From: Ardenticatenia bacterium
Lineage (GTDB): Bacteria > Chloroflexota > Anaerolineae > 4572-78 > NAK82
Length of the DNA stretch: 64,000 bases
Assembly (NCBI GenBank): GCA_003130875.1
Contig: QEXY01000005.1
Coordinates: forward strand, 14,799-78,798
Direction: 5' to 3'
The notes under the pieces were generated by a model. That model was given only the letters and a program-made list of their open reading frames with translations. It searched no databases and was not told where the DNA came from. The position numbers were made by a program, and so were the translations under genes. Shown here in pieces: positions 8,567 through 62,549 of the stretch (positions within the stretch are counted from its first letter, which is position 1; each line of letters opens with the position of its first letter).

Positions 8567-9430
8567 GTGACGTCAATGAAGTCTTGTGCAAACAGAGGAA
8601 CGGGGCTTCTCGGAAGGACATGGAAAGGGCTGGCGGTGCTCCTGTGTGCAGTTATCTTAGTATGGGCGTCTCTGCCGATGGCAACCGCTCATGCCCAGGA
8701 TGGTGTTGTCTATGTCGTGCAGCCCGGCGACACATTAACTGGCATTGCAGCACGCTATGGCATTTCGCTGGCCCGGCTGGCCGCTGCGAACGGGCTGCGT
8801 TGGAATGCGTGGGTGTATGTCGGACAACGACTCATCATCCCAGGTGCAGCGCCAATACCCGGTGCACCCTCTGTTCCGAGCGGGAGCACCTATGTAGTAC
8901 AGCGTGGAGATACGCTCTCCTCGATTGCATTGCGTTATGGCACGACAGTGGCCGCTTTAATGGCGGCGAACCGGCTGGCAAACCCTAACTTCATTTACGT
9001 CGGTCAGCGGCTGGTGATACCCAGCAGTGTCGCAGCACCGACTCCAGTACCTCCCACTCCACCTGTGGCGGACTATGGTGGTAAGTGGATTGATGTAGAT
9101 CTGACCCATCAGGTCTTACGTGCTTATGCCGGGCAAACGTTGGTGTTTCAGACACTCGTCTCCACAGGTCTGCCAGCGACACCCACTGTTATGGGCACCT
9201 ATCGCATTTATGCGAAATATGTCTCGGCGCCTATGTCGGGGCCAGGGTACTATCTGCCGAATGTGCCCTATATTATGTATTTCTACCGCGGATATGCCCT
9301 CCACGGCACCTATTGGCATAGCAACTTTGGCCGGCCGATGAGTCACGGCTGTGTTAATCTTTCGGTTGCAGATGCGGAGTGGCTGTTTAACTGGGCAGAG
9401 GTGGGAACACCTGTGGTGGTACATTACTGA
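8567..9430 (+). CDS. Secreted L,D-transpeptidase (YkuD) with two LysM domains
   Basis: It has a signal peptide and two LysM repeats (YVVQPGDTLTGIAARYG, YVVQRGDTLSSIALRYG). The YkuD catalytic segment is YALHGTYWHSNFGRPMSHGCVNL. Confidence 0.85.
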   Translation: MTSMKSCANRGTGLLGRTWKGLAVLLCAVILVWASLPMATAHAQDGVVYVVQPGDTLTGIAARYGISLARLAAANGLRWNAWVYVGQRLIIPGAAPIPGAPSVPSGSTYVVQRGDTLSSIALRYGTTVAALMAANRLANPNFIYVGQRLVIPSSVAAPTPVPPTPPVADYGGKWIDVDLTHQVLRAYAGQTLVFQTLVSTGLPATPTVMGTYRIYAKYVSAPMSGPGYYLPNVPYIMYFYRGYALHGTYWHSNFGRPMSHGCVNLSVADAEWLFNWAEVGTPVVVHY

Positions 9431-21123: not shown

Positions 21124-21843
21124 ATGGAGCTGGTGGACTACCTGCGGATTTTGACCAAACGGGGTTGGATTGCCATCCTGGTCGCAATTGTGGCCGCGGT
21201 CACAGCTTTTGCTGTCAGCAAAATGCAAACACCCGTTTACAGCGCCAGTGTCAAGCTGAGTGTCAATCCGGCACGCGCCGATTGGGGACTCAGCAACACC
21301 ACCAAGGACTTGCTGCGCAATTACGCCGAGAACATTCGTACCCACAAGATGGCCCAAGAAGTGATCGACCGTGCCCAACTGGATATGGATACCACCACTC
21401 TGTTGGGCAAATTGTTCGTCAGCCCAGCAGCGGATACGTTCACCCTCCAGATTGAAGCACGTGACACCGATCCACAGGTTGCGATGACCATCGCCCAGAC
21501 TATGGCCGAAGTTTTCGTGGAAGATCGGGACGCATGGAACCAGCGCCAGGACAAGCGCGACCGCATTGAGGTGAGCATCTTGGATTCGGTGTGGAATCTG
21601 GGCTATCAGCAGTACTCCCCTAACACACGGATCAATACCCTGGCGGGGGGGCTAGTGGGGTTGCTGGTCGGCCTGCTGGTGGTGTTCTTCCTGGAATGGT
21701 TGGAACAGGATGTCATTCGCACTGATGCAGACATCGAACGAACTGTCCAGGTGACGGTGCTGGGTGTGATTCCGCCTGTTACTTCCGAGGGTGGGGGTCG
21801 GACAGCAGAGCGCAAGCTGGCGACTGTCAGGCGCAGCGCATAG
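21124..21843 (+). CDS. Wzz/PCP-like polysaccharide co-polymerase, copy 2
   Basis: It starts MELVDYLRILTKRGWIAILVAIVAAV...TPVYSASVKLSVNP and has a C-terminal TM helix GGLVGLLVGLLVVFFLEWL. Confidence 0.7.
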   Translation: MELVDYLRILTKRGWIAILVAIVAAVTAFAVSKMQTPVYSASVKLSVNPARADWGLSNTTKDLLRNYAENIRTHKMAQEVIDRAQLDMDTTTLLGKLFVSPAADTFTLQIEARDTDPQVAMTIAQTMAEVFVEDRDAWNQRQDKRDRIEVSILDSVWNLGYQQYSPNTRINTLAGGLVGLLVGLLVVFFLEWLEQDVIRTDADIERTVQVTVLGVIPPVTSEGGGRTAERKLATVRRSA

Positions 21844-21889
21844 TGCCTGTGCGTGGGCTATTAAACACGAGGAAGGGTGCTCGCAAACG

Positions 21890-22555
21890 ATGGATCAGAT
21901 TATCACCTTAACTGCTCCGACGTCGCCAGCAGCAGAGGCGTATCGTGCGTTGTGCGTCAACCTTGAATTCGCCGCTGTTGACCGAACATTGCGTACCTTG
22001 TTGGTGACGTCACCCAGTCCCAAAGAGGACAAGAGCCTGGCACTTGCCAATCTGGCAGTGGCATTGGCGGACGGCGAACGCTCAGTTATCGTCGTGGATG
22101 CAGACCTGCGACGGCCGCGTCTGCACACCATATTCGGCTTGCCCAATGAGCGCGGGCTGACCGATTTATTTCGGGGTGCCCTGTCTGCTTCTGATCTTCC
22201 TCTGCAATCCATTCCTAACACGACCTTGAAGGTGTTGACCAGCGGGCCTTTGCCGTCCATTCCTAGCCAGCTGTTGGCGACGCGTCGTATGGAAGAGGTC
22301 ATCGCTCTTCTACGCGAACAGGCGGACATGGTGCTCTTCGACGCTCCGCCGTTGATAGCGGTGACCGATGCTTCTCTATTGGCAAGCAAGATGGATGGGG
22401 TACTTCTGGTTGTGGAAGCAGGCAACACACGACGTGACCACGTGCGCGCTGCCAAAGATCGGTTGGACAAGGTGAATGCCTGGCTGGTGGGCTCGGTGTT
22501 GCTCAACGCACCTTTTGATCGCAGTTTCGGTGGTTATTATCCCAACTATCGCTGA
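21890..22555 (+). CDS. CapB/PtkA-type BY-kinase homolog with an atypical Walker A
   Basis: I trimmed the 21791 ORF to ATG 21890. Walker A' VVDADLRRP, Walker B VLFDAPP and a C-terminal Tyr cluster GGYYPNYR are present. Walker A reads SPSPKEDKS, where PtkA has ACPGEGKS. Confidence 0.8.
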   Translation: MDQIITLTAPTSPAAEAYRALCVNLEFAAVDRTLRTLLVTSPSPKEDKSLALANLAVALADGERSVIVVDADLRRPRLHTIFGLPNERGLTDLFRGALSASDLPLQSIPNTTLKVLTSGPLPSIPSQLLATRRMEEVIALLREQADMVLFDAPPLIAVTDASLLASKMDGVLLVVEAGNTRRDHVRAAKDRLDKVNAWLVGSVLLNAPFDRSFGGYYPNYR

Positions 22556-23671: not shown

Positions 23672-24604
23672 CTAAGGGCGCGGCTTCGCCACTACGATTA
23701 CCCGATGCGTATTGTTGGTATAAGGCCAACAGGTGATGAGCGTTAGCCTGATATCATCTGTCGGGCCAATCCAGCGAGCATTCTGCTGACGGACTTCGAG
23801 CGGTTCGCCTTTCTCTTTGACAATCATCTTTTGCTCTACATAATAACGATACAGCGTGCTGCCCACGTAAATGTCAATCTCGGCGCCCTCTTCAATGTCA
23901 GCCAGATAGCGGAATACCTCTCCTTTGATGTTGTGATGTCCAGAGATAACCGTGTTTCCCGGTTGGCCAGGCAGAGCACTGGTGACATGCCAGCCTGCGG
24001 CGTAGTCTGCTACCTGCCAGACACTATATGTCTGGCCCCCTTCATTGACGATCTTCCACGTCACTGGCACCACAGGCGTGTCAATGCCTAACGACGGGAT
24101 CACCAGACGCTCCGGTGCCCCTTCTCGTGCGATAGGAGGTGCAGGTGATAGCGTGGTGGGTGTTGCAGTGGGAGGTGGCGTCGGCGTGGAGGACGGAGTG
24201 GAAGTAGCGATAAGGATAAAGGGTGAAGGCGTTGGTGATGCGGTGGGGCTGGGTGTCCTTGAAGACGTAGGTGACGGTCTCGGTGTTGGGGTAGGCTGAA
24301 CTGTTGGCACGACGTTTTGATCTGACGTTCCTCCTTGCCGGATTTCCGGTGATCTCCATGCTGGAGGTGCGTCGAGGTACGAGTAAAATACTGCGGTAGG
24401 CATCTTCGCCAGACTCTTACCTCTGCGTTCCAGGAGCTCCCGGCGTGCCTGAACGTCTTGAAATCCCCACACAACGATCAAAATCAGCAGAACAACACCT
24501 GTCCAGGTGAAGCTACTGATGATCAACATCAGATGTTCCACCGAGGTAAGGTCATGGGAATTTCCTGACGGTCTTCGACGTCTCAATAGAGTCCCCTTTG
24601 GCAT
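23672..24604 (-). CDS. Membrane-anchored sortase with a Pro/Thr-rich linker
   Basis: It has a TM helix and a PT-rich tract. Catalytic elements are VISGHHN, the Cys in LTLITCWPY and the Arg in NTHRVIVVA. Confidence 0.8.
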   Translation of the reverse strand: MPKGTLLRRRRPSGNSHDLTSVEHLMLIISSFTWTGVVLLILIVVWGFQDVQARRELLERRGKSLAKMPTAVFYSYLDAPPAWRSPEIRQGGTSDQNVVPTVQPTPTPRPSPTSSRTPSPTASPTPSPFILIATSTPSSTPTPPPTATPTTLSPAPPIAREGAPERLVIPSLGIDTPVVPVTWKIVNEGGQTYSVWQVADYAAGWHVTSALPGQPGNTVISGHHNIKGEVFRYLADIEEGAEIDIYVGSTLYRYYVEQKMIVKEKGEPLEVRQQNARWIGPTDDIRLTLITCWPYTNNTHRVIVVAKPRP

Positions 24605-51083: not shown

Positions 51084-51911
51084 CTATGGCATGTTAGAAG
51101 GTGTCGGGGTGGGCGTAAGGAGCAACGGGGAACCCTCGTCGACTTTTTCCCATATCTGATCGACCACCTGTCCCCTTTGTCCCATGCGTCCCATCGATTC
51201 TCCATTGACGATAGCTTCGACGCCGCCGGCGTTGCCAACCCGCACGGCCACCTGTTTCTGGCCATTCCAGTGCTTCGCCTCGCCTGGGCGCAAAATGCCC
51301 TCGAACTCTTTCACGCCATCTACAAACACCTGTACCCAGGACTCATCGGTGATGCGCAATTCCACCGTCACACCGGTGTAGTAGACCGGAGTCGACGTGT
51401 TCGTGGGAGTCGGCGTTAACGTGGGCAGCGGAGTAGGAGTGGGCAGGATAAACACCGCGTCCTCAGTGGGCAGCATCGATCCTCTTGCCTCTTCTAGCAG
51501 CGGCAACAGCCGTCCCTGAAAAACGTAGAAGGCGCCCACTAAGCCACCGACCACCACCAAAACCGCCAAAATGGCGACCAGGAAGTCGCTCGGGGTACGT
51601 CCTGAGGCGCCGATAGGGATGTCTTTGTATAAGATACCCTTCTCCGATAACATGGCGCCGTCGTCTGGGACATCGGGCGGGCGTGTGAGCCCTTCGAACA
51701 TGCCCACCAAAACTTCCGGATCCAGTTTGAGCACCGAAGCGTAGCTGCGCAGGAAACCACGCCCGACCACCGAGTCGGGCAGCTCTTCGAACCGCTCCTG
51801 CTCCAGCGCTTCTAAGTAGCGGCGTTGAATACACGTGATGGTTTGGACGTCCTCCAGGGTCAGGCCCAGCTCCTCACGTGAACGGCGCAACAGATCACCC
51901 AGCTCTTTCAC
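51084..51911 (-). CDS. rodZ: RodZ-like cytoskeleton protein (HTH, TM helix, PT-rich linker, DUF4115-like C-terminus)
   Basis: It has LGDLLRRSREELGLTLEDVQTITCIQRRYLEALE and one TM helix. The C-terminus ELRITDESWVQVFVDG...VRVGNAGGVEAIVNG fits DUF4115. The start codon is GTG. Confidence 0.75.
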   Translation of the reverse strand: MKELGDLLRRSREELGLTLEDVQTITCIQRRYLEALEQERFEELPDSVVGRGFLRSYASVLKLDPEVLVGMFEGLTRPPDVPDDGAMLSEKGILYKDIPIGASGRTPSDFLVAILAVLVVVGGLVGAFYVFQGRLLPLLEEARGSMLPTEDAVFILPTPTPLPTLTPTPTNTSTPVYYTGVTVELRITDESWVQVFVDGVKEFEGILRPGEAKHWNGQKQVAVRVGNAGGVEAIVNGESMGRMGQRGQVVDQIWEKVDEGSPLLLTPTPTPSNMP

Positions 51912-54501: not shown

Positions 54502-55689
54502 TCATGGCAAGAGCGCCGCCATAGTGCGGCGCGCAATGGACATCGCTGCCGAGCGATTTTCTTCATCCTCAAGCACCAAGGCAAAAGCCACCTGGGGATG
54601 GGTGGCCGGCGCGTAGCCCACCAACCAAGTAAGAGAAGCACGGCCTGTTTCCACTGGCAATGCTACGCCGATCCAGCTCGCTATCCCGTCGTAAGCCGGT
54701 GTGAGAGCTCGCAGGGTGTGCGCGACATTCTCAGAGAAGACACGCTCCATCCCAGCCAGCTCTGTGGAATGTTGTAGCACAGGTACAGGCATCTGCCCAT
54801 CTCCGGCCACAGCTGCGGCAAAACGGGCCATGTGCAGCGGGGTGACGGCCAGGTCGCGCTCGGTTGTACGTCCGTCGAAGCTGGGCAACCGACCCGAACT
54901 GGCCGGCAAAGCGATAGGGGGCGTCTGGGTGAAACCAAGCTGGTGTGCCGTGGCCACATAGCCCATCCGGCTCAGTGGCGCCAGCAAAACGGCAAGCGAA
55001 ACTTCCGATGGACGGGAAGGGGTGGTGATCCCTGCGCTGAGCAGTCCGGCCAGGCCAATCCAGCGTGCCAGATCGCCCACCGGATAGATTCCCTGGGTGG
55101 CGCGGTTTAGCAATGGAGCGGACGGGTCGGCTATCAGATCTTCCCACGTCTCATCCAGGCGGTTTGGTTCGTAAGAAGGATGACTCACCATAGCAAGCAA
55201 CGCCCCACTGGCGATGTCAAGCGCGATGAATGTGCCGATGTGGTCGCCCAACTCCGTGTCGGCGATGCGCATAGCTGTCAGGTCAGCACTCAACATGACA
55301 TCCTCACCCCGTTGGGGACGGTGGAGCAGCTCTTCCAGACGGTTGCGCTTGCCGCGCAGGATAGAATCAAACACTGCCTCGCAACCGCCGGTGCCATAGC
55401 GCAGGCTATAGTAACCCACCAGATGCGCTGTTGCTGTTTCCGGGTAATGGCGATGAAACACAGGAACGTTGCCCGGACCGTGCTCTGGCGCCGAATAGGC
55501 GAGCACCATTCCGGAACGGTCTAAGAGTCGCCCCCTTTGGATCTGTCGTTCTGCCTGGACGAGGCGCGGATTGTCCGCACGTACCACCAACTGGGGGGCC
55601 TGGATCACCTGCCAGTAAGCAAGGGCCCCTGCCACGACAAAGAAGCTCAGCAGCAATGCACGCATCAGACGGATGACGGCAACCGTCAC
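54502..55689 (-). CDS. Class B penicillin-binding-protein homolog lacking all three catalytic motifs (predicted pseudo-transpeptidase)
   Basis: It has an N-terminal TM helix and a pedestal-like region, then LLAMVSHPSYEPN and NRATQGIYPVGDLARW, where E. coli PBP2 has NRATQGVYPPASTVKP. SxN/D reads SRM and KTG/KSG reads SWIG. The C-terminal APATHPQVAFALVLE is conserved. Confidence 0.8.
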   Translation of the reverse strand: MTVAVIRLMRALLLSFFVVAGALAYWQVIQAPQLVVRADNPRLVQAERQIQRGRLLDRSGMVLAYSAPEHGPGNVPVFHRHYPETATAHLVGYYSLRYGTGGCEAVFDSILRGKRNRLEELLHRPQRGEDVMLSADLTAMRIADTELGDHIGTFIALDIASGALLAMVSHPSYEPNRLDETWEDLIADPSAPLLNRATQGIYPVGDLARWIGLAGLLSAGITTPSRPSEVSLAVLLAPLSRMGYVATAHQLGFTQTPPIALPASSGRLPSFDGRTTERDLAVTPLHMARFAAAVAGDGQMPVPVLQHSTELAGMERVFSENVAHTLRALTPAYDGIASWIGVALPVETGRASLTWLVGYAPATHPQVAFALVLEDEENRSAAMSIARRTMAALLP

Positions 55690-57026
55690 ATCTTCTCCCC
55701 TCTTGAATGCTGCAGAGCAATCGCGTGACTGGAGAGGCGGAGCAACAACCCCACCATTGTCATGCTGACCAACAGCGAGCTTCCTCCATAGCTGATAAAC
55801 GGGAGGGTCACACCGGTCAAGGGGATCATTTTCAGGGTACCCGCCATAATCACCAGCGACTGCAGACCGAACAGCGCGCCAATGCCGACGGCCAACAACC
55901 GTTCGAACATGCGCTGGCAGGATAACGCGATCCGAAACGCGCGGGAGACCAGCAGCATAAAAGCTACTACCAGACCCAAAGTGCCGATCAATCCATACTC
56001 TTCGCCCACCGCTGCGAAGACAAAATCAGTGTGTACCACTGGGATGGCACCGGGCAATCCTTGGCCAAGCCCTTGCCCGAAAACACCACCGCTGGCAAAC
56101 GCCAACAACGCCTGCACGATCTGAAACGAGCGTCCGGAGGCTTCCTCCCATGGATTCAGCCAGGCATCCACCCGAAGCGCCACAACGTCGAATATGTGGT
56201 AACCCACCGCTCCTGCCCCGATCAGCAGTATGCAGCTGGCTAATACATAGATCCCTTGCCCCGTTGCGGCATAGAACATTGCCAGGAACACCCCAAAGAA
56301 TAACACAGCTGCTCCCAGGTCACGCTGCCAGAGCAAAAGCACTATGCTGAATCCCCACATAAATAGCAGGGGGCTGACATAGGCTGGATGGGGAATACGC
56401 CAGCGATGCAACTGCACATTGACCTCGACCAATGCAGCTTGTCTTTGGGATAGGTAGCTGGCCAGGAACACGATCATCAACAGTTTGAGCAGTTCGGAGG
56501 GTTGGAAGTAAAACCCCGCAGCTCCCAACCACAGGCGTGCACCAGCTCCACTGGGATTGACACCCAGGAAAAAGGTCATCCCCAAGAGGAACAGACCTAG
56601 CAGGAGCCATGTGTAACGAAAGCGCTCTAACCAACGTAATCCTTGCGGAAGGAGAGCGGCCCCTAGCAGCGCACCACTGCCCAGCACCATCCAGAGGGTC
56701 TGACGCAGGAGAAACACAGGTGGCGCCAGACGAGCCACCTCCGCCAGACCCCAGCCGATCAGCAGGGTGATCAGAGGCAATAGCACGCGGTCATAATAAG
56801 GCAATTGCCGTTGCAGCAGCCAAGTAGCAGCCAGTGCACAGACTGCCAAGAGTGCCGGCGCCATAAAGCGTGCCGGTGTCAGCTGGGCATCCTCCACAAG
56901 GGAGAGCTGCACGAATGCTACAAAAGTAAAAATCAAAGGAAGCCCGCTGACCAGCACTGACCATCCCATCCACTCTCGGGTGAGCAATATCCCTTGTGAA
57001 CGTATATCAAGATGAACGCTCATCAC
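55686..57026 (-). CDS. ftsW: SEDS-family peptidoglycan polymerase (FtsW/RodA)
   Basis: It has about 10 TM helices and the conserved PVVHTDFVFAAVGEEYG segment. It overlaps the PBP-like gene by 4 nt. Confidence 0.85.
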   Translation of the reverse strand: MMSVHLDIRSQGILLTREWMGWSVLVSGLPLIFTFVAFVQLSLVEDAQLTPARFMAPALLAVCALAATWLLQRQLPYYDRVLLPLITLLIGWGLAEVARLAPPVFLLRQTLWMVLGSGALLGAALLPQGLRWLERFRYTWLLLGLFLLGMTFFLGVNPSGAGARLWLGAAGFYFQPSELLKLLMIVFLASYLSQRQAALVEVNVQLHRWRIPHPAYVSPLLFMWGFSIVLLLWQRDLGAAVLFFGVFLAMFYAATGQGIYVLASCILLIGAGAVGYHIFDVVALRVDAWLNPWEEASGRSFQIVQALLAFASGGVFGQGLGQGLPGAIPVVHTDFVFAAVGEEYGLIGTLGLVVAFMLLVSRAFRIALSCQRMFERLLAVGIGALFGLQSLVIMAGTLKMIPLTGVTLPFISYGGSSLLVSMTMVGLLLRLSSHAIALQHSRGEKM

Positions 57027-57098: not shown

Positions 57099-57971
57099 TC
57101 ACGGGTGTGCTTTGAGATACTTGCCAATTAAAAGGTCCAGATTCTTCTTTAGATGCTCTGGGATGCACTCAGACCGGGTGATGATAGCATCGCGCAGGGC
57201 ATGCTGACATGGGCAATCGAACTCGGATGGAAGCAGCTCCACCAAGTTTTTGATCGCCTGTTTCGCGATGGCTGCGTTCGCCATCAAGTTTTGGATAATG
57301 GCTTCGACAGTCACCGGCTCCTCTGCCTCGTGCCACACGTCATAATCGGTGACGTGGGCCATCGTGGCATAGCACATCTCCGCTTCGCGTGCCAGTTGTG
57401 CCTCGGGTATCGCGGTCATTCCGATGATGTCCATTCCCCACTGACGATAGACGCGGCTTTCTGCCTTGGTGCTGAAACGTGGTCCCTCGATGGTGATGAA
57501 CGCTCCTCCGTTGTGTACCCTGGCCCCGGTTGCTTTCACCGCTTGGTACAACAAAGCGGACAATCGGCTACAGAACGGCTCGGCGAAGCTGATATGTACC
57601 ACCAACCCGTTGCCGAAGAAGCTGAGCGGGCGTCCGCGCGTACGGTCAAACAGCTGGTCAGGAATGACCACGTCGCGGGGAGCAAAGTCCTCGCGCAAGC
57701 TGCCACAGGCGCTTACTGAGATGATCTGGGTCGCTCCCAGCTTTTTCAGGGCATAGATGTTGGCTCGACTGTTCAGCTCGCCAGGGCTGATGCGGTGACC
57801 GCGTCCATGGCGGGGCAAGAAGGCCAATCGCCGGCCGCCCAAGGTGCCAACGATGATGGCATCGGAAGGCTCTCCAAACGGCGTGTGCAGCTTGACCTCT
57901 TCAACGTCGGTCAGCTCCTCTATCTCATAAATACCCGAACCACCGATGACCGCGAGTGTGACCGGTTCCAT
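57099..57971 (-). CDS. mtnP: S-methyl-5'-thioadenosine phosphorylase
   Basis: It has AVIGGSG, FLPRHGRGH and TMAHVTDYDVW, with a length of 290 aa. Confidence 0.9.
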   Translation of the reverse strand: MEPVTLAVIGGSGIYEIEELTDVEEVKLHTPFGEPSDAIIVGTLGGRRLAFLPRHGRGHRISPGELNSRANIYALKKLGATQIISVSACGSLREDFAPRDVVIPDQLFDRTRGRPLSFFGNGLVVHISFAEPFCSRLSALLYQAVKATGARVHNGGAFITIEGPRFSTKAESRVYRQWGMDIIGMTAIPEAQLAREAEMCYATMAHVTDYDVWHEAEEPVTVEAIIQNLMANAAIAKQAIKNLVELLPSEFDCPCQHALRDAIITRSECIPEHLKKNLDLLIGKYLKAHP

Positions 57972-57984
57972 AAAGAAGTGCCTC

Positions 57985-58482
57985 CTATTTTGGGGTTGTA
58001 TTAAGATCTAGATGGGCTGTCCCATCACCTGTCTCAAACCGCAGCTTCAATCGGCCGAGGCCGATGACATCTCCTTTTGTCAAGGGGGTTGTCTCCGTGA
58101 CCAGTGCGTCGTTCAGACGTGTGCCATTGCGGCTGCCCAAGTCGGTCAACCACCACTGACCTGCGCGGTTATCGATACGCGCGTGGTATGCCGAAACCCA
58201 CTCATCGCGGAGCACGATCTGATTGTCCTCTGCGCGGCCCAACATAGCCGGCGGAAGCACCACAAAGACCGTCTCAGATTGCGACGGCATGTCTGCGTCG
58301 GGCACCATCCGCAACCAGGCGATCGGTTTTTCACCCGCACCTACTGTGTTACGTCTCCCCTGCGGATCACTTGTCACCGTCTGGATATCGCGCCAGATCA
58401 GATATGCGACGAGCAGCAGAAAAGCGTACAGGATGAGCACTGCCAATACGCGCAGAATCAACAGCACCCATTCCATGTCCAC
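57985..58482 (-). CDS. FhaB/FipA-like protein: N-terminal TM helix plus C-terminal FHA domain
   Basis: The FHA signature is LGRAEDNQIVL...VSAYHARI...LTDLGSRNGTRLN. Confidence 0.8.
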   Translation of the reverse strand: MDMEWVLLILRVLAVLILYAFLLLVAYLIWRDIQTVTSDPQGRRNTVGAGEKPIAWLRMVPDADMPSQSETVFVVLPPAMLGRAEDNQIVLRDEWVSAYHARIDNRAGQWWLTDLGSRNGTRLNDALVTETTPLTKGDVIGLGRLKLRFETGDGTAHLDLNTTPK

Positions 58483-58488
58483 AGAGCA

Positions 58489-58935
58489 TTACCTCGTTGG
58501 GTCAGCCGGCCGCGTCTCGTCTAGCCATCTCCCTGTCGCACGCATTGCAAAACCGGACGCACCTGCGTCGTCGCTCCAAAAGGCGTGCACCTCAGCGCGG
58601 CCAGGTGACACGCGGGGTTCCAGCTGCAGCAAAATTGATGGCGGGACGACAAAACGTCCTCCGGCCTCCCGAGCGATGCGGTGCAAACACTGGTATAAAC
58701 CGCTCAACAGCTCTTCCTGGTTGCCCTCAAGCGCTTTCCAATCAGCAGGGTGCAACACGACCCGATAGCGGTCCGGAAAGACAAGTTGTGAGCCTATGGT
58801 AAGGCACTTGTCCTCCATCGCTTGGGCGATGTCACGGATCAGATCGCTCCAATGGATCGGCACAGGAAAGAGCGAACCGAAGGCACGCTCGATGAGCTGT
58901 TCCACCAACGCTTCAAGTTGTTCGATGCCTGCCAT
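58489..58935 (-). CDS. DUF3662 (FhaA N-terminal domain-like) protein without an FHA domain
   Basis: 148 aa. The pattern LEALVEQLIERAFGSLF...FPDRYRVVLHPADW resembles the N-terminal domain of mycobacterial FhaA as I recall it. Confidence 0.6.
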   Translation of the reverse strand: MAGIEQLEALVEQLIERAFGSLFPVPIHWSDLIRDIAQAMEDKCLTIGSQLVFPDRYRVVLHPADWKALEGNQEELLSGLYQCLHRIAREAGGRFVVPPSILLQLEPRVSPGRAEVHAFWSDDAGASGFAMRATGRWLDETRPADPTR

Positions 58936-58958: not shown

Positions 58959-60206
58959 TCATTCGTAGCGCAACGCATCAATCGGATTCAAGCTTGCAGC
59001 ACGGGTGGCTGGGTAAATCCCGAAAAACAGACCGACCGCCGCCGAGAAGATGGTTGCCAGTAAGATCGCCTCCAGACGCACGATAGTGTTGATCCCGGCC
59101 AGCTGGGTCACCAGTACGGAGCAAGCATACCCGAAGACGACCCCCTGTGCCCCACCGATTAAGGCAAGCACCACCGCTTCGACCAAAAATTGCAACAAAA
59201 TGTCGCGCCGTCGGGCACCCACTGCCTTGCGAATACCGATCTCGCGCGTGCGCTCGGTGACCGAGACCAGCATGATATTCATAATACCGATGCCCCCTAC
59301 AACCAGCGAGATGCCAGCGATCGCCCCCAGAACAATGGTAAACACAGCTGTGAAATCGCCGAATACTTTGATCAAATCGGACTGGCTGATAATTGAAAAG
59401 TCGTCGTCATCGCGAAAGCTGATGCGGTGGCGCTCTCGTAAGATCTCTGTCACCTGATCCGCTACTACATCCATGACATCCTGGCTGACCGTCTGAATGA
59501 AAATAAGCGAAACAGCCAGTTCACCGCGCACAACGGGCGCTCGGAACAATCGTGTCTGGGCCGTGCTGATCGGGATAATCACAATGTTATCCTGATTGCC
59601 GAATGGACCGCCACCCTTCTCCTCCAACACCCCGATAACGCGAAAAGGAATATCATTCAGCTTGACCGTCTGGCCGATGGGATACTCACCTTCGTCGAAC
59701 AGGCGCTCGGCCGGCTGTGCCCCCAAGACAGCGACGCGCGAACGTGCATTGACGTGTTCTTGGTTAATGAATTCGCCCAGCGTCAGGTTGAAATTGCGCA
59801 CTGATTGGTACTGAGGTGGTGCGCCGATAATATAAGTGGAAAGCTCTCGACTGCCACGCACGATCGTTCCATTGCGCGAATACTCCGCTGCAACAGCGAC
59901 CACACCGGACACCTGGAATGGATCTGCGATTGCCTCGGCATCTCCGAGGGTGAGCGGTTGTACCCGTTGCCCTGTGCGCCGTATTGGGGAGCTACCTGGC
60001 TCTAACTGGCCGGGGAAGACGAACAAAAGATTAGAGCCCAACCCGCTGAACTGTTGGGCGATGTATTCCTCAAAGCCATACCCCACTGAAAGCAGAGCAA
60101 TCACGGCCCCTACGCCGATGATAATGCCTAACATCGTGAGCGCAGCGCGTAGCTTGTTGACCGCCAGGGCGTTCAATGCGATGCGGATGCTTTCCAGCAA
60201 AGGCAT
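58959..60206 (-). CDS. MacB/FtsX-type ABC transporter permease
   Basis: It has the four-TM FtsX topology with a large extracytoplasmic loop. ERTREIGIRKAVGARRRDIL is present. Confidence 0.85.
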   Translation of the reverse strand: MPLLESIRIALNALAVNKLRAALTMLGIIIGVGAVIALLSVGYGFEEYIAQQFSGLGSNLLFVFPGQLEPGSSPIRRTGQRVQPLTLGDAEAIADPFQVSGVVAVAAEYSRNGTIVRGSRELSTYIIGAPPQYQSVRNFNLTLGEFINQEHVNARSRVAVLGAQPAERLFDEGEYPIGQTVKLNDIPFRVIGVLEEKGGGPFGNQDNIVIIPISTAQTRLFRAPVVRGELAVSLIFIQTVSQDVMDVVADQVTEILRERHRISFRDDDDFSIISQSDLIKVFGDFTAVFTIVLGAIAGISLVVGGIGIMNIMLVSVTERTREIGIRKAVGARRRDILLQFLVEAVVLALIGGAQGVVFGYACSVLVTQLAGINTIVRLEAILLATIFSAAVGLFFGIYPATRAASLNPIDALRYE

Positions 60207-60212
60207 AGGTGT

Positions 60213-60944
60213 TCAGGTCGCTGCGGTGGCATATGCCAGAGATGTAACTGGGCGATCGTCGACAATGCGTCCATCGGCGATGCGCACGATGCGCTGCGCG
60301 TGGCGCGCAATGTCGTGTTCGTGGGTGACCAAGATAATGGTGATGCCGCGCTCGGCGTTTAATCGCTGGAAGATGGCCATAATCTCCTCACCCGAACGCG
60401 AATCCAGGTTGCCGGTTGGCTCGTCGGCCAGGATGATGGCCGGCTGATTGACGATGGCACGTGCAATGGCGACACGCTGCTGTTGACCACCAGAGAGTTC
60501 ATTGGGGCGGTGGCGCATGCGGTCAGCCAGCCCCACCGCCTCCAGCGCCGCCAAAGCCAGTTCCCGCCGTTTGTGCGGTGCCACGCCGCTATAGATGAGG
60601 GGCAGTTCCACGTTCTCTAGTGCTGTAGCGCGTGGCAACAAGTTGAAATTCTGGAAAACAAAACCGATTTTGCGCCCTCGGACGTAGGCTAGCTGATCAT
60701 CGTTCATCTCTGCGACCGAGATGCCGTCCAGATAGTATCGTCCGCGGGTGGGTGTGTCCAGACAACCCAGGATGTTCAGTAAAGTCGACTTCCCAGAGCC
60801 GGATGCTCCCATAATTGCCAGCATCTCTCCGCGCTGCACTTGTAACGAAACGCCACATAATGCACATACCTGCACCGATCCCATCTGGTAGATCTTGACC
60901 AAGTCGCGCGCGTCAATCAATGCCTGAGCCGGTTGCTCTTCCAT
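60213..60944 (-). CDS. MacB/LolD-type ABC transporter ATP-binding protein
   Basis: It has [23 protein letters not shown] and [11 protein letters not shown]. Confidence 0.9.
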
Positions 60945-60950
60945 TGCCTG

Positions 60951-62549
60951 TCAATCACCTGAGCGGAAAAGACGTTGCAGCTGTTCACGACGTGAGATCT
61001 TGCGCACGACCACACGATCGCCTTCTGCTAGACCCTGCACCACCTGACTGTAGGTCTCACTGCGCAGTCCCAATTGGATCTCTACCGGAGTGGATAGACC
61101 GTCCGACGTCACTTTCTCGACAAAGTAATGCGTCTCTCCGCGACTGCGGTCCACGCTGACGGCGCGGTTGGGGACGAGGAGCACGTCTTCCAGCCGCTCG
61201 ACTTCGATGGTGGCATCAGCACTCAGCCCTAGTAACAACACGGTACCAGGATCTTTCAGGGCAATGGTCACCTGATAGGAAACCACACCACCGGAACCGG
61301 CGGATGTCGCGCGCGGGGCAATCTCGGCGACGTATCCCTCTAATCGGGTATCAGGGAAGGCATCAACCGAGATGGAGACCTTCTGACCGAGGCGGACGCG
61401 CCCGACATCCACTTCGTCCACTTCCACGGTGAGCTGGTAAGCGGAGAGATCGCTGACCACAACTCCCTGTGCGCGGCCGGGCGTAGAGTTTTCACCCACT
61501 TTGAGGTTACTTTCGGTCACAATGCCATCTATCGGTGCCACCAGTAAGGCGCTTGCCAGATTAACCCGCGCCTGTTCCACGGCGATCTGCGCGGCATCCA
61601 CAGCTGCTTGAGCAATGGCAATCTCGATGGGGGATGGTTCCCTTAGCAAACGGCTTAGCGCTGCTTCGGCTTGCGCCAGCTGAGCTTCAGCAGCTTTTTG
61701 CTCGGCTTCTGAAGGCCCGCGCACCAGCCTGTCTAGGGCAGCTTCCGCCTGGGCCACCTGAGCTTCCGCCGCCGCTATGTCCGCTTCGTCAGCTCCCTTA
61801 GTCGCTAACAGATAGTTGGCCTTCGCTGCCTCGTAGTCAATGGTGGCTTGCTCCAGCTGAGCTGCTTGCGGCGAGGCTCCCACATCACCGCGGTAGGAGA
61901 TCTGATCGTAGGCCCACTGAGCTTGTTTGAGAGCGATCTCAGCGCGCCGCAGTTGAGCAGCTCGCACTGTGATCTCATTTTCGTCCAGCCCTTTAAGCAC
62001 GCGTCGCAAGTTGGCACGGGCGCTGGTCACTGCCGCTTGTGCCGAATCAAGTTCTTTTGGATTTGGGGGCGCTCGCAGCTCTTCCAGCTGCGCTTTGGCC
62101 TTTGCCACCTCTGCGCGTGCTGCTGCGACATCGGCCTCATCAGGTGGTTCATAGAGCTGCTCAAGCTGAGATCGGGCACGTGCCAGCTCAACTTCGGCGC
62201 GTCGGATTGCCAGCTCCAGATCATCGGTGCGCAACCGCGCCATCAGCGTTCCCTTTGTGACGTGCTGCCCACGTTCAACGAACACCTCTGCGACCACACC
62301 GCTGATGCCAAACTCCACACGAACCTCATTCCGAGGTTCAATGCGACCGGAGGCATTGATCGTGCTAAGGAGCGTGCCGCGGCCAATTGTGATCACCTCT
62401 TCCACTTCTGGATCGCGCGCGATGTCATAGGGTGCCGGATTGAGCAACGTCCAGCTTCCCACACTGATGCCAACAATCAGAAGCAGAATAGCGCTTATTC
62501 TAATGAAACGTGCCATGTTTCTTCTTCGCCATTCCCGATACCAATGCAC
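60951..62549 (-). CDS. HlyD/MacA-type membrane-fusion (periplasmic adaptor) protein with a greatly extended alpha-helical region
   Basis: It has an N-terminal TM helix and biotinyl-lipoyl and beta-barrel segments. About 8 Ala/Gln/Glu-rich helical modules lie between them. The start may be ATG 62516. Confidence 0.8.
   Translation of the reverse strand: MHWYREWRRRNMARFIRISAILLLIVGISVGSWTLLNPAPYDIARDPEVEEVITIGRGTLLSTINASGRIEPRNEVRVEFGISGVVAEVFVERGQHVTKGTLMARLRTDDLELAIRRAEVELARARSQLEQLYEPPDEADVAAARAEVAKAKAQLEELRAPPNPKELDSAQAAVTSARANLRRVLKGLDENEITVRAAQLRRAEIALKQAQWAYDQISYRGDVGASPQAAQLEQATIDYEAAKANYLLATKGADEADIAAAEAQVAQAEAALDRLVRGPSEAEQKAAEAQLAQAEAALSRLLREPSPIEIAIAQAAVDAAQIAVEQARVNLASALLVAPIDGIVTESNLKVGENSTPGRAQGVVVSDLSAYQLTVEVDEVDVGRVRLGQKVSISVDAFPDTRLEGYVAEIAPRATSAGSGGVVSYQVTIALKDPGTVLLLGLSADATIEVERLEDVLLVPNRAVSVDRSRGETHYFVEKVTSDGLSTPVEIQLGLRSETYSQVVQGLAEGDRVVVRKISRREQLQRLFRSGD

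What the first reader, a model, noticed from the sequence alone, without database searches (positions are those of the whole stretch)
54502..57026. Catalytically dead class B PBP translationally coupled to an intact SEDS polymerase
**What the sequence shows.**
- The PBP-like ORF keeps the bPBP fold landmarks: membrane anchor, LLAMVSHPSYEPN, NRATQG, VTPLHMA and the C-terminal PQVAFALVLE.
- The nucleophile motif SxxK is DLAR: YPVGDLARW versus YPPASTVKP in E. coli PBP2 as I recall it.
- SxN/D is SRM, and KTG/KSG is (S)WIG.
- The region between the first two motifs is also shortened.
- The upstream FtsW/RodA gene overlaps it by 4 nt and retains the conserved HTDFVF segment.

**Inference.** SEDS glycosyltransferases are known to be activated by their cognate bPBP. 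This could be a pseudo-enzyme kept purely as an allosteric or scaffolding partner. Cross-linking would then come from other enzymes, such as the LysM-YkuD L,D-transpeptidase at 8567-9430 or other PBPs elsewhere.
Basis: partly seen in the sequence, partly recalled or inferred. Interest (0 to 1): 0.65.

Follow-up and report, generated by a model that had tools for sequence, protein, structure and literature searches.

The report
Naturally inactive PbpA partner of SEDS polymerase
This uncultured Anaerolineae bacterium pairs an intact cell-wall glycan polymerase (SEDS) with a penicillin-binding-protein relative that has lost all three catalytic motifs yet is kept by selection, and the same dead partner, often fused to the polymerase, runs through a large clade of Chloroflexota.

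Summary
ORF 54502-55689(-) is a 395-aa PbpA-type class B PBP homologue. It has a TM anchor, PF21922, PF00905, and an AF2 model at pLDDT 91 whose best PDB match is M. tuberculosis PbpA.

- **Motifs:** SxxK is D-L-A-R and KTG is W-I-G.
- **Correction:** SxN is not "SRM". It lies inside a ~36-45-residue deletion.
- **SEDS:** 55686-57026(-) overlaps the PBP by 4 nt (GTGA, with GGGGAG upstream). It keeps the equivalents of T. thermophilus RodA E108, K111 and D255.

This is not strain-specific decay:
- About 100 orthologues (35-83% identity) share the substitutions.
- dN/dS is 0.11-0.19, and 0.11-0.23 in the transpeptidase-like half.
- Of the 150 best 50%-identity cluster representatives, 121 lack the motifs, 10 of them as single-ORF SEDS-PBP fusions.
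- In a rough NJ tree the dead forms make one clade nested among intact Chloroflexota PbpA.
- Constraint has shifted toward the N-terminal, SEDS-facing module.

Best reading: a pseudo-transpeptidase kept as the obligate partner or activator of its SEDS polymerase. Still untested are acylation, activation, the source of cross-links, and whether an intact bPBP co-occurs in the same genome.

I found no prior description. I rate it a new variant of a known kind, interest about 0.66.

The parts
54502..55689 (-). Non-catalytic PbpA-type class B PBP homologue (pseudo-transpeptidase), 395 aa
   Evidence: ORF. Pfam PF21922 and PF00905. AF2 gives pLDDT 91.4 and pTM 0.85. The Foldseek top hits are M. tuberculosis PbpA 3un7/3upn with TMq 0.76-0.79. 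dN/dS is 0.11-0.19.
55585..55686 (-). N-terminal membrane-anchor helix (residues ~2-35)
   Evidence: AF2 helix 2-35; hydrophobic stretch ALLLSFFVVAGALAYW. Y25, W26, A31 and R37 are invariant across dead and intact relatives.
55336..55536 (-). PbpA-type dimerisation/pedestal module (residues 52-118)
   Evidence: PF21922 at 36 bits, above the cutoff of 27. This is the best-conserved half in dead lineages.
55063..55074 (-). Former SxxK motif, now D206-L-A-R209
   Evidence: Aligned to GSTFK of M. tuberculosis PbpA and to GSVFK of intact Chloroflexota homologues. It lies at the start of AF2 helix 205-218.
55002..55003 (-). Site of the ~36-45-residue deletion (between E229 and V230) that removes the SxN-bearing segment
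   Evidence: Alignment gap against the intact YSCN-containing segment. There are 74 residues against ~120 between positions 210 and 283.
54667..54675 (-). Former KTG motif, now W339-I-G341 on strand beta3
   Evidence: Gap-free alignment of AGKTGTA to ASWIGVA; AF2 strand 336-343.
54643..54651 (-). E347-T348-G349 in the beta3-beta4 loop. T348 and G349 are invariant within the dead clade; the role is unexplained.
   Evidence: Invariant columns of alignment A4. The loop lies between strands 336-343 and 353-360.
55686..55700 (-). Coupling junction: SD-like GGGGAG (55695-55700), PBP start GTG (55689-55687) and SEDS stop TGA (55688-55686)
   Evidence: Sequence read. The same 4-nt overlap is seen in L083, L084, L086 and L087; the overlap is 8 nt in L085, there is a 6-nt gap in L081, and the genes are fused in L001-L004.
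55686..57026 (-). Intact SEDS glycosyltransferase (FtsW/RodA family; by synteny the counterpart of actinobacterial RodA), 446 aa
   Evidence: PF01098 at 252 bits. TIGR02614 ftsW at 271 bits and RodA models, all below their equivalog cutoffs. PDB best hit is T. thermophilus RodA 6pl5/6bar.
56025..56027 (-). SEDS Asp334 (HTDF), equivalent of T. thermophilus RodA D255
   Evidence: Counted on the 6bar alignment. Conserved as H(T/S)DF or ISDF in all Chloroflexota loci.
56484..56495 (-). SEDS E178...K181 (QPSELLK), equivalents of T. thermophilus RodA E108/K111
   Evidence: alignment; conserved across loci.
57099..57971 (-). MTAP (S-methyl-5'-thioadenosine phosphorylase), a conserved member of the gene string
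   Evidence: TIGR01694 at 308 bits, above the cutoff of 274.85. Present between FhaB and SEDS in most Chloroflexota loci.
57985..58482 (-). FhaB/FipA-like membrane FHA protein
   Evidence: PF00498. NF049868 FhaB_Rv0019c at 80 bits, below the cutoff of 125.
58489..58935 (-). FhaA N-terminal-domain protein without an FHA domain
   Evidence: PF12401 at 56 bits. The orthologues in L081-L086 are also 148-158 aa.
51084..51911 (-). RodZ-like protein (context only)
   Evidence: HTH_25 and RodZ_C.
8567..9430 (+). 2xLysM-YkuD L,D-transpeptidase. It is a candidate alternative cross-linker with no demonstrated link to this system.
   Evidence: PF01476 and PF03734.

Best explanation
**What it is.** The 395-aa protein descends from a PbpA-type class B PBP and can no longer act as a serine D,D-transpeptidase.
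- The nucleophile Ser is now Asp and its general-base Lys is now Arg.
- The SxN segment is deleted.
- The KTG Lys is now Trp.

**What it does.** It is kept as the dedicated membrane partner of the SEDS polymerase encoded immediately upstream.
- Its TM helix and its juxtamembrane and pedestal module are proposed to hold and allosterically license the SEDS enzyme to polymerise lipid II.
- The shrunken transpeptidase-like domain survives as a folded structural or positioning module.

**Where cross-links come from.** Cross-linking of the strands would be done by other enzymes. Candidates are a canonical PBP2/FtsI-type bPBP, an aPBP, or YkuD L,D-transpeptidases.

**Shown versus inferred.**
- Shown: motif loss, retained fold, purifying selection, clade-wide conservation, coupling and fusion to SEDS, and an intact SEDS active site.
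- Inferred: physical activation of SEDS, and the identity of the cross-linking enzymes.
For: **Motif loss**
- Placement by sequence and structure.

**Fold retained**
- AF2 gives pLDDT 91.4 and pTM 0.85.
- Foldseek gives TMq 0.76-0.79 to M. tuberculosis PbpA.

**Selection**
- dN/dS is 0.11-0.19 for the whole gene, 0.11-0.15 for residues 1-150 and 0.11-0.23 for residues 151-395.
- The comparison genes give 0.05-0.13 (SEDS), 0.03-0.09 (MTAP) and 0.11-0.20 (FhaB).

**Breadth**
- About 100 orthologues share GDLAR and the deletion.
- In 80 GTDB loci, nearly all Chloroflexota copies lack SxxK and KTG, while actinobacterial copies are intact.
- 121 of the top 150 50%-identity representatives are dead.
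- The dead forms make one clade nested among intact Chloroflexota PbpA in a rough NJ tree.

**Partnership with SEDS**
- Adjacency and a 4-nt overlap are conserved.
- Single-ORF fusions occur in at least three separate dead lineages: L001-4, L016-34, and the ~880-940-aa full-length-dead fusions. See also the 807-aa ORF in L023 and more than 120 clusters of that fusion.
- The fusion order fits the topology: the cytoplasmic C-terminus of SEDS leads into the PBP TM helix.
- SEDS keeps its E, K and D residues in the dead-PBP loci (E->G in one, L021).
- The identity ratio of the TP domain to the N-terminal module is 1.0-1.24 among intact proteins and 0.66-0.89 in dead groups.

**Established knowledge**
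- FtsW polymerase activity requires its cognate bPBP, and TP-inactive variants were used in those assays (bioRxiv 10.1101/358663).
- Engineered catalytically inactive bPBPs remain functionally required in B. subtilis and C. difficile (as summarised in PMC12516126).
Against: - There is no biochemical evidence: no acylation assay, no polymerase assay and no interaction data.
- AF2 of a natural fusion gave only pTM 0.61, with the SEDS extracellular loop (277-313) below pLDDT 50. The pedestal-SEDS interface is therefore not confidently modelled.
- The TP-like half is still under clear purifying selection, and new residues are conserved around the former cleft. These are D206 and R209 in this clade, and invariant T348 and G349. 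This suggests it does more than act as an inert spacer.
- I could not show that the same genomes carry an intact bPBP or aPBP. The window has none, and contig-length matching failed.
- dS of 0.7-1.8 is partly saturated, so the ratios are approximate.
- The NJ tree may group fast-evolving sequences artificially.
Confidence: 0.66

Rival explanations
1. **Repurposed domain.** The transpeptidase-like domain is not merely structural. It has a remodelled pocket that binds a ligand, such as nascent glycan, a stem peptide or a partner enzyme, or that performs a different chemistry. Through this it senses or steers SEDS output. One version is recruitment of an active bPBP or L,D-transpeptidase.
For: - The TP-like half is under purifying selection, with dN/dS 0.11-0.23.
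- Replacement residues are themselves conserved: GD/ELAR and invariant T348-G349 in this clade.
- The full-length dead class has a distinct conserved set: QPGxxLQ, xCP and GHx(G/S/A).
- bPBP-bPBP cooperation with an inactive canonical bPBP is reported in B. subtilis and C. difficile (PMC12516126).
Against: - The residue at the nucleophile position varies across the dead clade (D, E, G, A, T, S, L, K), so no common catalytic residue exists.
- Different subclades delete 45-70 residues of the domain.
- The domain is less conserved than the N-terminal module.
- The conserved Cys of xCP is ancestral: it is the middle residue of SCN in intact relatives.
Confidence: 0.2
2. **Still an enzyme.** The protein remains a peptidoglycan transpeptidase or carboxypeptidase that uses a non-canonical active site.
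For: The overall penicilloyl-serine-transferase fold is retained with high model confidence, and the gene is under selection.
Against: - All three motifs are lost together.
- The SxN wall of the cleft is deleted.
- No alternative nucleophile is conserved across orthologous dead lineages.
Confidence: 0.05
3. **Decaying remnant.** This is a recently inactivated gene on its way to loss, with no function.
For: Pfam splits the transpeptidase match into three weak stretches, and the domain is shortened.
Against: - The reading frame is intact in every orthologue examined.
- dN/dS is 0.11-0.19 at dS of 0.7-1.8.
- The substitutions are conserved down to 35% identity, and there are more than 120 dead 50%-identity clusters.
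- Fusions to SEDS are maintained in many lineages.
Confidence: 0.02

Closest known systems
Mycobacterium tuberculosis PbpA (Rv0016c) with RodA, in the actinobacterial fhaA-fhaB-pstP-rodA-pbpA-pknA-pknB locus
   Same: - PbpA gives the best PDB match by sequence (E 1e-17 to 1e-20) and by fold (TMq 0.76-0.79).
- The architecture is the same: TM anchor, PF21922 and PF00905.
- The gene order FhaA_N, FhaB, then SEDS, then PbpA is shared. The locus is described in PMC6554272.
   Different: - M. tuberculosis PbpA has SxxK (STFK) and KTG and is acylated by beta-lactams (PDB 3upn/3upo/3upp titles).
- The window protein has DLAR, no SxN and WIG, and is about 70-90 residues shorter.
- The Chloroflexota locus has MTAP where Actinobacteria have PstP, and it has no PknA or PknB next to it.
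SEDS-bPBP synthase pairs (RodA-PBP2, FtsW-FtsI) in which the bPBP activates the polymerase
   Same: - The cognate genes are adjacent.
- The bPBP has a single TM helix and a membrane-proximal module next to SEDS.
- The SEDS catalytic Asp and the E/K pair are present.
- FtsW needs its cognate bPBP for polymerase activity (10.1101/358663).
   Different: In the studied pairs the bPBP is an active D,D-transpeptidase. Here the natural protein lacks the whole catalytic triad of motifs. The pedestal is the short PbpA type (PF21922), not the canonical PF03717.
Engineered catalytically inactive bPBPs (B. subtilis PBP2b*, C. difficile SpoVD/PBP variants)
   Same: These show that a bPBP can be needed for its presence rather than for its transpeptidase activity, with another bPBP supplying cross-linking (summarised in PMC12516126; PMC12713402).
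   Different: Those are laboratory point mutants of active enzymes. Here the inactive state is natural, ancient and clade-wide, and it comes with domain shrinkage.
Chimeric SEDS-bPBP 'bifunctional class B synthases' (PMC12516126)
   Same: The domain order is the same (FtsW/RodA/SpoVE, then PBP-A dimerisation, then TPase). Fusions occur in the relatives of this gene.
   Different: That survey used domain architecture only. It has no occurrences of 'active site' or 'SxxK'. The Chloroflexota fusions examined here are mostly motif-less, so they are not bifunctional in the proposed sense.

Membership tests
Class B penicillin-binding protein, PbpA subtype (homology) | N-terminal single TM anchor | tested here: met
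   AF2 helix 2-35 and a hydrophobic N-terminus.
Class B penicillin-binding protein, PbpA subtype (homology) | PbpA-type dimerisation/pedestal domain (PF21922) | tested here: met
   36.1 bits, above the cutoff of 27.
Class B penicillin-binding protein, PbpA subtype (homology) | Penicilloyl-serine-transferase (PF00905) fold | tested here: met
   63 bits, above the cutoff of 22.1. Foldseek gives E 1.7e-25 and TMq 0.76-0.79 to 3un7/3upn.
Functional D,D-transpeptidase / penicillin-binding protein | SxxK with nucleophilic Ser and Lys | tested here: not met
   D206-L-A-R209 at the aligned position.
Functional D,D-transpeptidase / penicillin-binding protein | SxN motif | tested here: not met
   The segment carrying YSCN in intact relatives is deleted.
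Functional D,D-transpeptidase / penicillin-binding protein | KTG/KSG on strand beta3 | tested here: not met
   W339-I-G341 on AF2 strand 336-343.
Functional D,D-transpeptidase / penicillin-binding protein | Covalent acylation by beta-lactams; cross-linking activity | not testable with these tools
   Needs Bocillin-FL labelling and an in vitro TPase assay.
SEDS peptidoglycan glycosyltransferase | FtsW/RodA/SpoVE domain | tested here: met
   PF01098 at 252 bits. Best PDB hits are RodA 6pl5/6bar and FtsW 8bh1.
SEDS peptidoglycan glycosyltransferase | Essential Asp (T. thermophilus RodA D255) and the E108/K111 pair | tested here: met
   D334 in HTDF, and E178/K181 in QPSELLK. Conserved in the orthologous loci, apart from E->G in L021.
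SEDS peptidoglycan glycosyltransferase | Assignment as the FtsW or RodA equivalog | tested here: inconclusive
   TIGR02614 ftsW scores 271 against a cutoff of 337.5, and TIGR02210 rodA scores 199 against 336.7. Synteny matches actinobacterial RodA.
Actinobacterial-type fhaA-fhaB-pstP-rodA-pbpA-pknA-pknB locus | FhaA and FhaB upstream of rodA-pbpA | tested here: met
   PF12401 FhaA_N and an FHA protein that hits FhaB_Rv0019c at 80 bits, below the cutoff of 125. The window's FhaA lacks the FHA domain.
Actinobacterial-type fhaA-fhaB-pstP-rodA-pbpA-pknA-pknB locus | PstP phosphatase and PknA/PknB kinases in the locus | tested here: not met
   MTAP occupies the slot between FhaB and SEDS. Downstream are YbaK and ProRS, with no kinase.
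Pseudoenzyme partner/activator of SEDS (proposed) | Maintained by purifying selection despite loss of catalytic residues | tested here: met
   dN/dS 0.11-0.19; conserved down to 35% identity.
Pseudoenzyme partner/activator of SEDS (proposed) | Dedicated genetic pairing with SEDS | tested here: met
   Overlap and fusion.
Pseudoenzyme partner/activator of SEDS (proposed) | Physical complex with SEDS and stimulation of its polymerase activity | not testable with these tools
   AF2 of a natural fusion gave pTM 0.61 with a low-confidence ECL4, which is inconclusive.

The most novel reading that the evidence does not exclude
The dead transpeptidase domain is not a passive scaffold. It is a repurposed module with a remodelled, newly conserved pocket.
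- In this clade the conserved residues are D206, R209, T348 and G349.
- In the full-length dead clade they are Q...Q, C-P and G-H.

The pocket would bind a peptidoglycan feature or a partner enzyme and gate the fused or coupled SEDS polymerase. That would make it a natural 'sensor-activator' class of bPBP-derived proteins that defines how most Anaerolineae-lineage Chloroflexota build their wall.
Probability: 0.18. Interest if true: 0.85.

Novelty: new variant of a known kind. Interest (0 to 1): 0.66.

Why it matters
**Two roles of a bPBP.** SEDS-bPBP pairs are the core cell-wall synthases and the main beta-lactam targets. The bPBP has two roles, cross-linking and switching on the polymerase, and so far these have been separated only with laboratory mutants.

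**A natural separation.** A large natural lineage has discarded the transpeptidase chemistry but kept the protein, and repeatedly welded it to the polymerase. This argues that the partner or activator role alone is worth keeping.

**What follows from it.**
- It points to cell walls whose SEDS-made strands are cross-linked by a separate enzyme.
- It predicts that this synthase is intrinsically insensitive to beta-lactams.
- It flags that thousands of database entries named 'penicillin-binding transpeptidase domain-containing protein', 'peptidoglycan glycosyltransferase' or putative bifunctional SEDS-bPBP chimeras are probably not transpeptidases.
- It gives minimal natural variants, with 45-70-residue deletions, for mapping what a bPBP needs in order to activate SEDS.

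Tried and rejected
1. **HMMER pairing of KTG with ETG.** Rejected in favour of WIG, because MAFFT gives a gap-free match and AF2 places 336-343 as beta3.
2. **SRM as the SxN equivalent.** Rejected, because SxN lies in the deleted segment.
3. **Strain-specific pseudogene.** Rejected.
4. **Another transpeptidase-domain gene in the window.** None was found with nine PBP queries against all ORFs of 100 aa or more.
5. **Same-genome co-occurrence of an intact bPBP.**
   - I searched with a canonical Anaerolineae PBP2 (L061) and compared 'longest contig' lengths with those of the dead and fused proteins. There was no match.
   - This shows only that canonical PBP2 (PF03717 + PF05223 + PF00905) is common in Chloroflexi MAGs. 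It does not show that the same cells have both.
   - L065 carries a canonical PBP followed directly by a SEDS hit-sized ORF, with two short upstream ORFs that I did not annotate.
6. **AF2 of a natural 807-aa fusion, to read the pedestal-SEDS interface.** It gave pLDDT 75.7 and pTM 0.61 with a disordered ECL4, so it was not usable.
7. **AFDB Foldseek, to find cultured species.** The library was unavailable.
8. **Literature searches for a prior description.** Eight searches found none (reading). The library is open-access only, so a subscription paper could have been missed.
9. **The GTDB scan.** The window's own species and many isolates were not retrieved.


Full report
**1. What is at the coordinates**

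Two ORFs on the minus strand match the finding.
- A 446-aa SEDS protein is at 55686-57026.
- A 395-aa PBP-like protein is at 54502-55689.
- The junction reads ...AGAGGGGAGAAGATGTGA. The PBP start GTG (55689-55687) overlaps the SEDS stop TGA (55688-55686), and an SD-like GGGGAG lies 5-10 nt upstream. This is the classic arrangement for translational coupling.

Family assignment:
- Pfam assigns PF01098 (252 bits) to the first protein. It assigns PF21922 (PbpA dimerisation domain, 36 bits) and PF00905 (transpeptidase, 63 bits, broken into three stretches) to the second.
- NCBIfam PBP2/FtsI equivalog models are hit far below their cutoffs.

Genes upstream on the same strand:
- MTAP. TIGR01694 scores above its cutoff.
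- A membrane FHA protein that hits FhaB_Rv0019c.
- An FhaA_N-only protein.

Genes downstream: YbaK, ProRS and a RodZ-like gene.

**2. The motif claims**

- **SxxK.** HMMER against PDB chains puts query yPvGDLARwi on M. tuberculosis PbpA yPpGSTFKvi. MAFFT against intact Chloroflexota relatives (PPGSVFKT) agrees.
- **KTG.** Intact AGKTGTA aligns without a gap to ASWIGVA, and both lie 16 residues before the conserved W of W(F/L)VGYAP.
- **Structure.** The AF2 model has pLDDT 91.4 and pTM 0.85. It has a helix starting at D206 (the SxxK helix), strand 336-343 (beta3, the KTG strand) and strand 353-360 (beta4). The ETG that HMMER matched sits in the beta3-beta4 loop.
- **SxN.** The YSCN of intact relatives lies inside a ~36-residue gap between E229 and V230. 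The stretch between positions 210 and 283 is 74 residues, against 118-121 in intact proteins.
- **Fold.** Foldseek's best PDB matches are M. tuberculosis PbpA and other PbpA-type structures, with TMq 0.71-0.79.
- **SEDS.** Counting along the 6bar alignment, HTDF D334 corresponds to T. thermophilus RodA D255, and QPSELLK corresponds to E108/K111.

All three catalytic motifs of the PBP are gone, and the partner polymerase looks catalytically competent.

**3. Not a decayed copy**

- The protein search returned 419 homologues. About 100 are ~395-aa proteins at 35-83% identity from Anaerolineae MAGs. They have the same G(D/E)LxR, the same deletion and W-x-G or equivalent.
- I obtained DNA for six orthologues (L081-L087). 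All show the string MacB-type ABC exporter, FhaA_N, FHA, MTAP, SEDS, PBP-like, then YbaK and ProRS, except the most distant, L087, which keeps only FhaA-FHA-MTAP-SEDS-PBP.
- Nei-Gojobori dN/dS values:

| Gene or region | dN/dS |
|---|---|
| PBP-like gene, whole (dS 0.7-1.8) | 0.11-0.19 |
| PBP-like, residues 1-150 | 0.11-0.15 |
| PBP-like, residues 151-395 | 0.11-0.23 |
| SEDS | 0.05-0.13 |
| MTAP | 0.03-0.09 |
| FhaB | 0.11-0.20 |

- Synonymous sites are partly saturated, so the values are approximate, but they are far from neutrality.

**4. The phenomenon is much larger than this gene**

A scan of GTDB species representatives with a mixed dead-plus-intact alignment returned 80 loci. My ORF and phmmer analysis of them shows FhaA-FhaB-MTAP-SEDS-PBP synteny across Chloroflexota. 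The PBP in that locus comes in four states.

| State | Loci | Features |
|---|---|---|
| (i) Fused, GDLAR type | L001-L004 | Single ~900-aa SEDS-PBP ORFs, 46-49% identical to the query |
| (ii) Separate, full length (~470 aa) | L005-9, L011, L013, L015, L018/19, L028 | SxxK -> QPGxxLQ/E; KTG -> GH(A/S/T)x |
| (iii) Fused, short (~810-920 aa) | L016-L034, including MAGs labelled Anaerolinea and Herpetosiphon | Only 46-51 residues (108-109 in L016, L025) where intact proteins have ~120, and no motifs |
| (iv) Intact (SxxK and KTG) | Three Chloroflexota loci (L010, L012, L014), all Actinomycetota loci and the other non-Chloroflexota loci | Canonical motifs |

- L023 carries one 807-aa ORF: SEDS, linker, TM helix and the dead PbpA module. 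More than 120 90%-identity clusters of that fusion exist, annotated only as FtsW/RodA/SpoVE proteins.
- A profile of the dead family searched against 1.84 billion 50%-identity representatives gave 1373 hits at E <= 1e-30. Of the best 150, 121 lack the motifs (10 are fusions) and 28 are intact (3 are fusions).
- In a rough NJ tree the dead forms make one clade nested among intact Chloroflexota PbpA. There is one separate loss, P0117, with PGATFN, GCN and KVG. Long-branch effects cannot be excluded.

**5. Evidence on function**

- SEDS partners in the dead-PBP loci retain the E, K and D residues, apart from an E->G in L021.
- Among intact proteins the transpeptidase domain is at least as conserved as the N-terminal module (identity ratio 1.0-1.24). 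In every dead group it is less conserved (0.66-0.89).
- Most invariant residues shared by dead and intact members lie in residues 25-200: YW, A31, R37, NPR, E47, RG and others.
- The fusion order is topologically sensible, running from the cytoplasmic C-terminus of SEDS into the PBP TM helix. Fusion has arisen in at least three separate dead lineages.
- It is established that FtsW needs its cognate bPBP to polymerise (10.1101/358663).
- It is also established that engineered inactive bPBPs remain required in B. subtilis and C. difficile (PMC12516126).
- The most economical reading is therefore a pseudo-transpeptidase retained as the structural or allosteric partner of its SEDS polymerase. I put this at about 0.66.

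**6. What is not shown**

- There are no biochemical data of any kind.
- AF2 of a natural fusion gave pTM 0.61 with the large extracellular loop disordered, so the interface is not resolved.
- The TP-like half is still constrained and has newly conserved residues near the old cleft. These are D206 and R209, plus invariant T348-G349 in this clade. The full-length dead clade has a distinct QPGxxLQ / xCP / GHx set. A repurposed binding or sensing role is therefore not excluded (about 0.2).
- The nucleophile position itself is variable across the clade, which argues against a surviving common catalytic mechanism.
- The source of cross-links is unknown:
  - The window contains a 2xLysM-YkuD L,D-transpeptidase (8567-9430) and a sortase, but no other PBP.
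  - Canonical intact PBP2 proteins are common in Chloroflexi MAGs. In L065 one sits directly upstream of a second SEDS gene.
  - I could not link any of them to a genome that carries the dead form.

**7. Comparison with the known**

- The locus is the Chloroflexota counterpart of the actinobacterial fhaA-fhaB-pstP-rodA-pbpA-pknA-pknB cluster (PMC6554272). MTAP stands in place of PstP, and there are no adjacent kinases.
- The protein is a homologue of PbpA by sequence, architecture and fold. It fails every tested defining feature of a functional penicillin-binding transpeptidase.
- A 2025 survey described PbpA-dimer bPBPs and SEDS-bPBP chimeras as putative bifunctional synthases, but it did not examine active-site motifs (PMC12516126).
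- Eight full-text searches found no description of a natural motif-less bPBP family. The library covers open-access literature only.

**8. Verdict**

- The finding is one member of a large, apparently undescribed clade of natural pseudo-bPBPs coupled or fused to SEDS polymerases.
- I classify it as a new variant of a known kind, with interest 0.66.

Noticed in passing
window 57099-57971 (-); L001-L034, L081-L087: A bona fide MTAP gene (TIGR01694 above its cutoff) sits between FhaB and the SEDS gene in nearly every Chloroflexota locus. This is the slot occupied by the PstP phosphatase in Actinobacteria. I have no explanation for why a methionine-salvage enzyme is locked into a cell-wall operon.
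   Followed up: partly
window 58489-58935 (-); L081-L086 versus L087, L023: The window's FhaA homologue is the N-terminal domain only (148 aa, no FHA domain), as in its close relatives. More distant Chloroflexota loci encode FhaA_N plus FHA (241-272 aa).
   Followed up: partly
L005-L009, L011, L013, L015, L028; P0371-P0505: The full-length (~470 aa) dead PbpA class has its own conserved replacement signature. SxxK becomes Q-P-G-x-x-L-Q, SxN becomes x-C-P and KTG becomes G-H-x-(G/S/A). The former nucleophile position is variable. This suggests a remodelled but constrained pocket.
   Followed up: partly
window 54643-54651 (E347-T348-G349) and 55063-55074 (D206-R209): Within the query's clade, T348 and G349 in the beta3-beta4 loop are invariant, and D/E206 and R209 are near-conserved. 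These newly fixed residues lie around the former active-site cleft and are unexplained.
   Followed up: no
P0117 (450 aa): A full-length relative that groups with intact proteins has lost the motifs independently (PGATFN, GCN, KVG). It looks like a second, more recent inactivation event.
   Followed up: no
L023 4793-7216; P0121-P0240; L001-L004; P0362, P0367, P0377 and others: Single-ORF SEDS-PbpA fusions of 800-940 aa are abundant in Anaerolineae. They arose in at least three separate dead lineages and also in intact ones. Databases name them only 'FtsW/RodA/SpoVE family' or 'FtsW (lipid II flippase)'.
   Followed up: yes
window 58959-62549 (-): A MacB-type tripartite ABC exporter lies directly upstream of the FhaA gene. 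It comprises a HlyD-like adaptor (60951-62549), an ATPase (60213-60944) and a MacB_PCD/FtsX permease (58959-60206). It is conserved there in L081-L086.
   Followed up: partly
window 8567-9430 (+), 23672-24604 (-), 21124-22555 (+): The window also encodes a 2xLysM-YkuD L,D-transpeptidase, a sortase and a Wzz-like chain-length determinant pair. These fit a monoderm-type envelope toolkit.
   Followed up: partly
L065 311-6204: In L065 (MAG labelled 'Chloroflexi bacterium'), a canonical 717-aa intact PBP gene is followed directly by a 372-aa ORF, and two short ORFs (262 and 164 aa) lie upstream. The layout resembles mreC-mreD-PBP2-RodA, but I did not annotate the flanking ORFs. If correct, a classical elongasome pair exists in the phylum alongside the FHA-locus pair.
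   Followed up: partly
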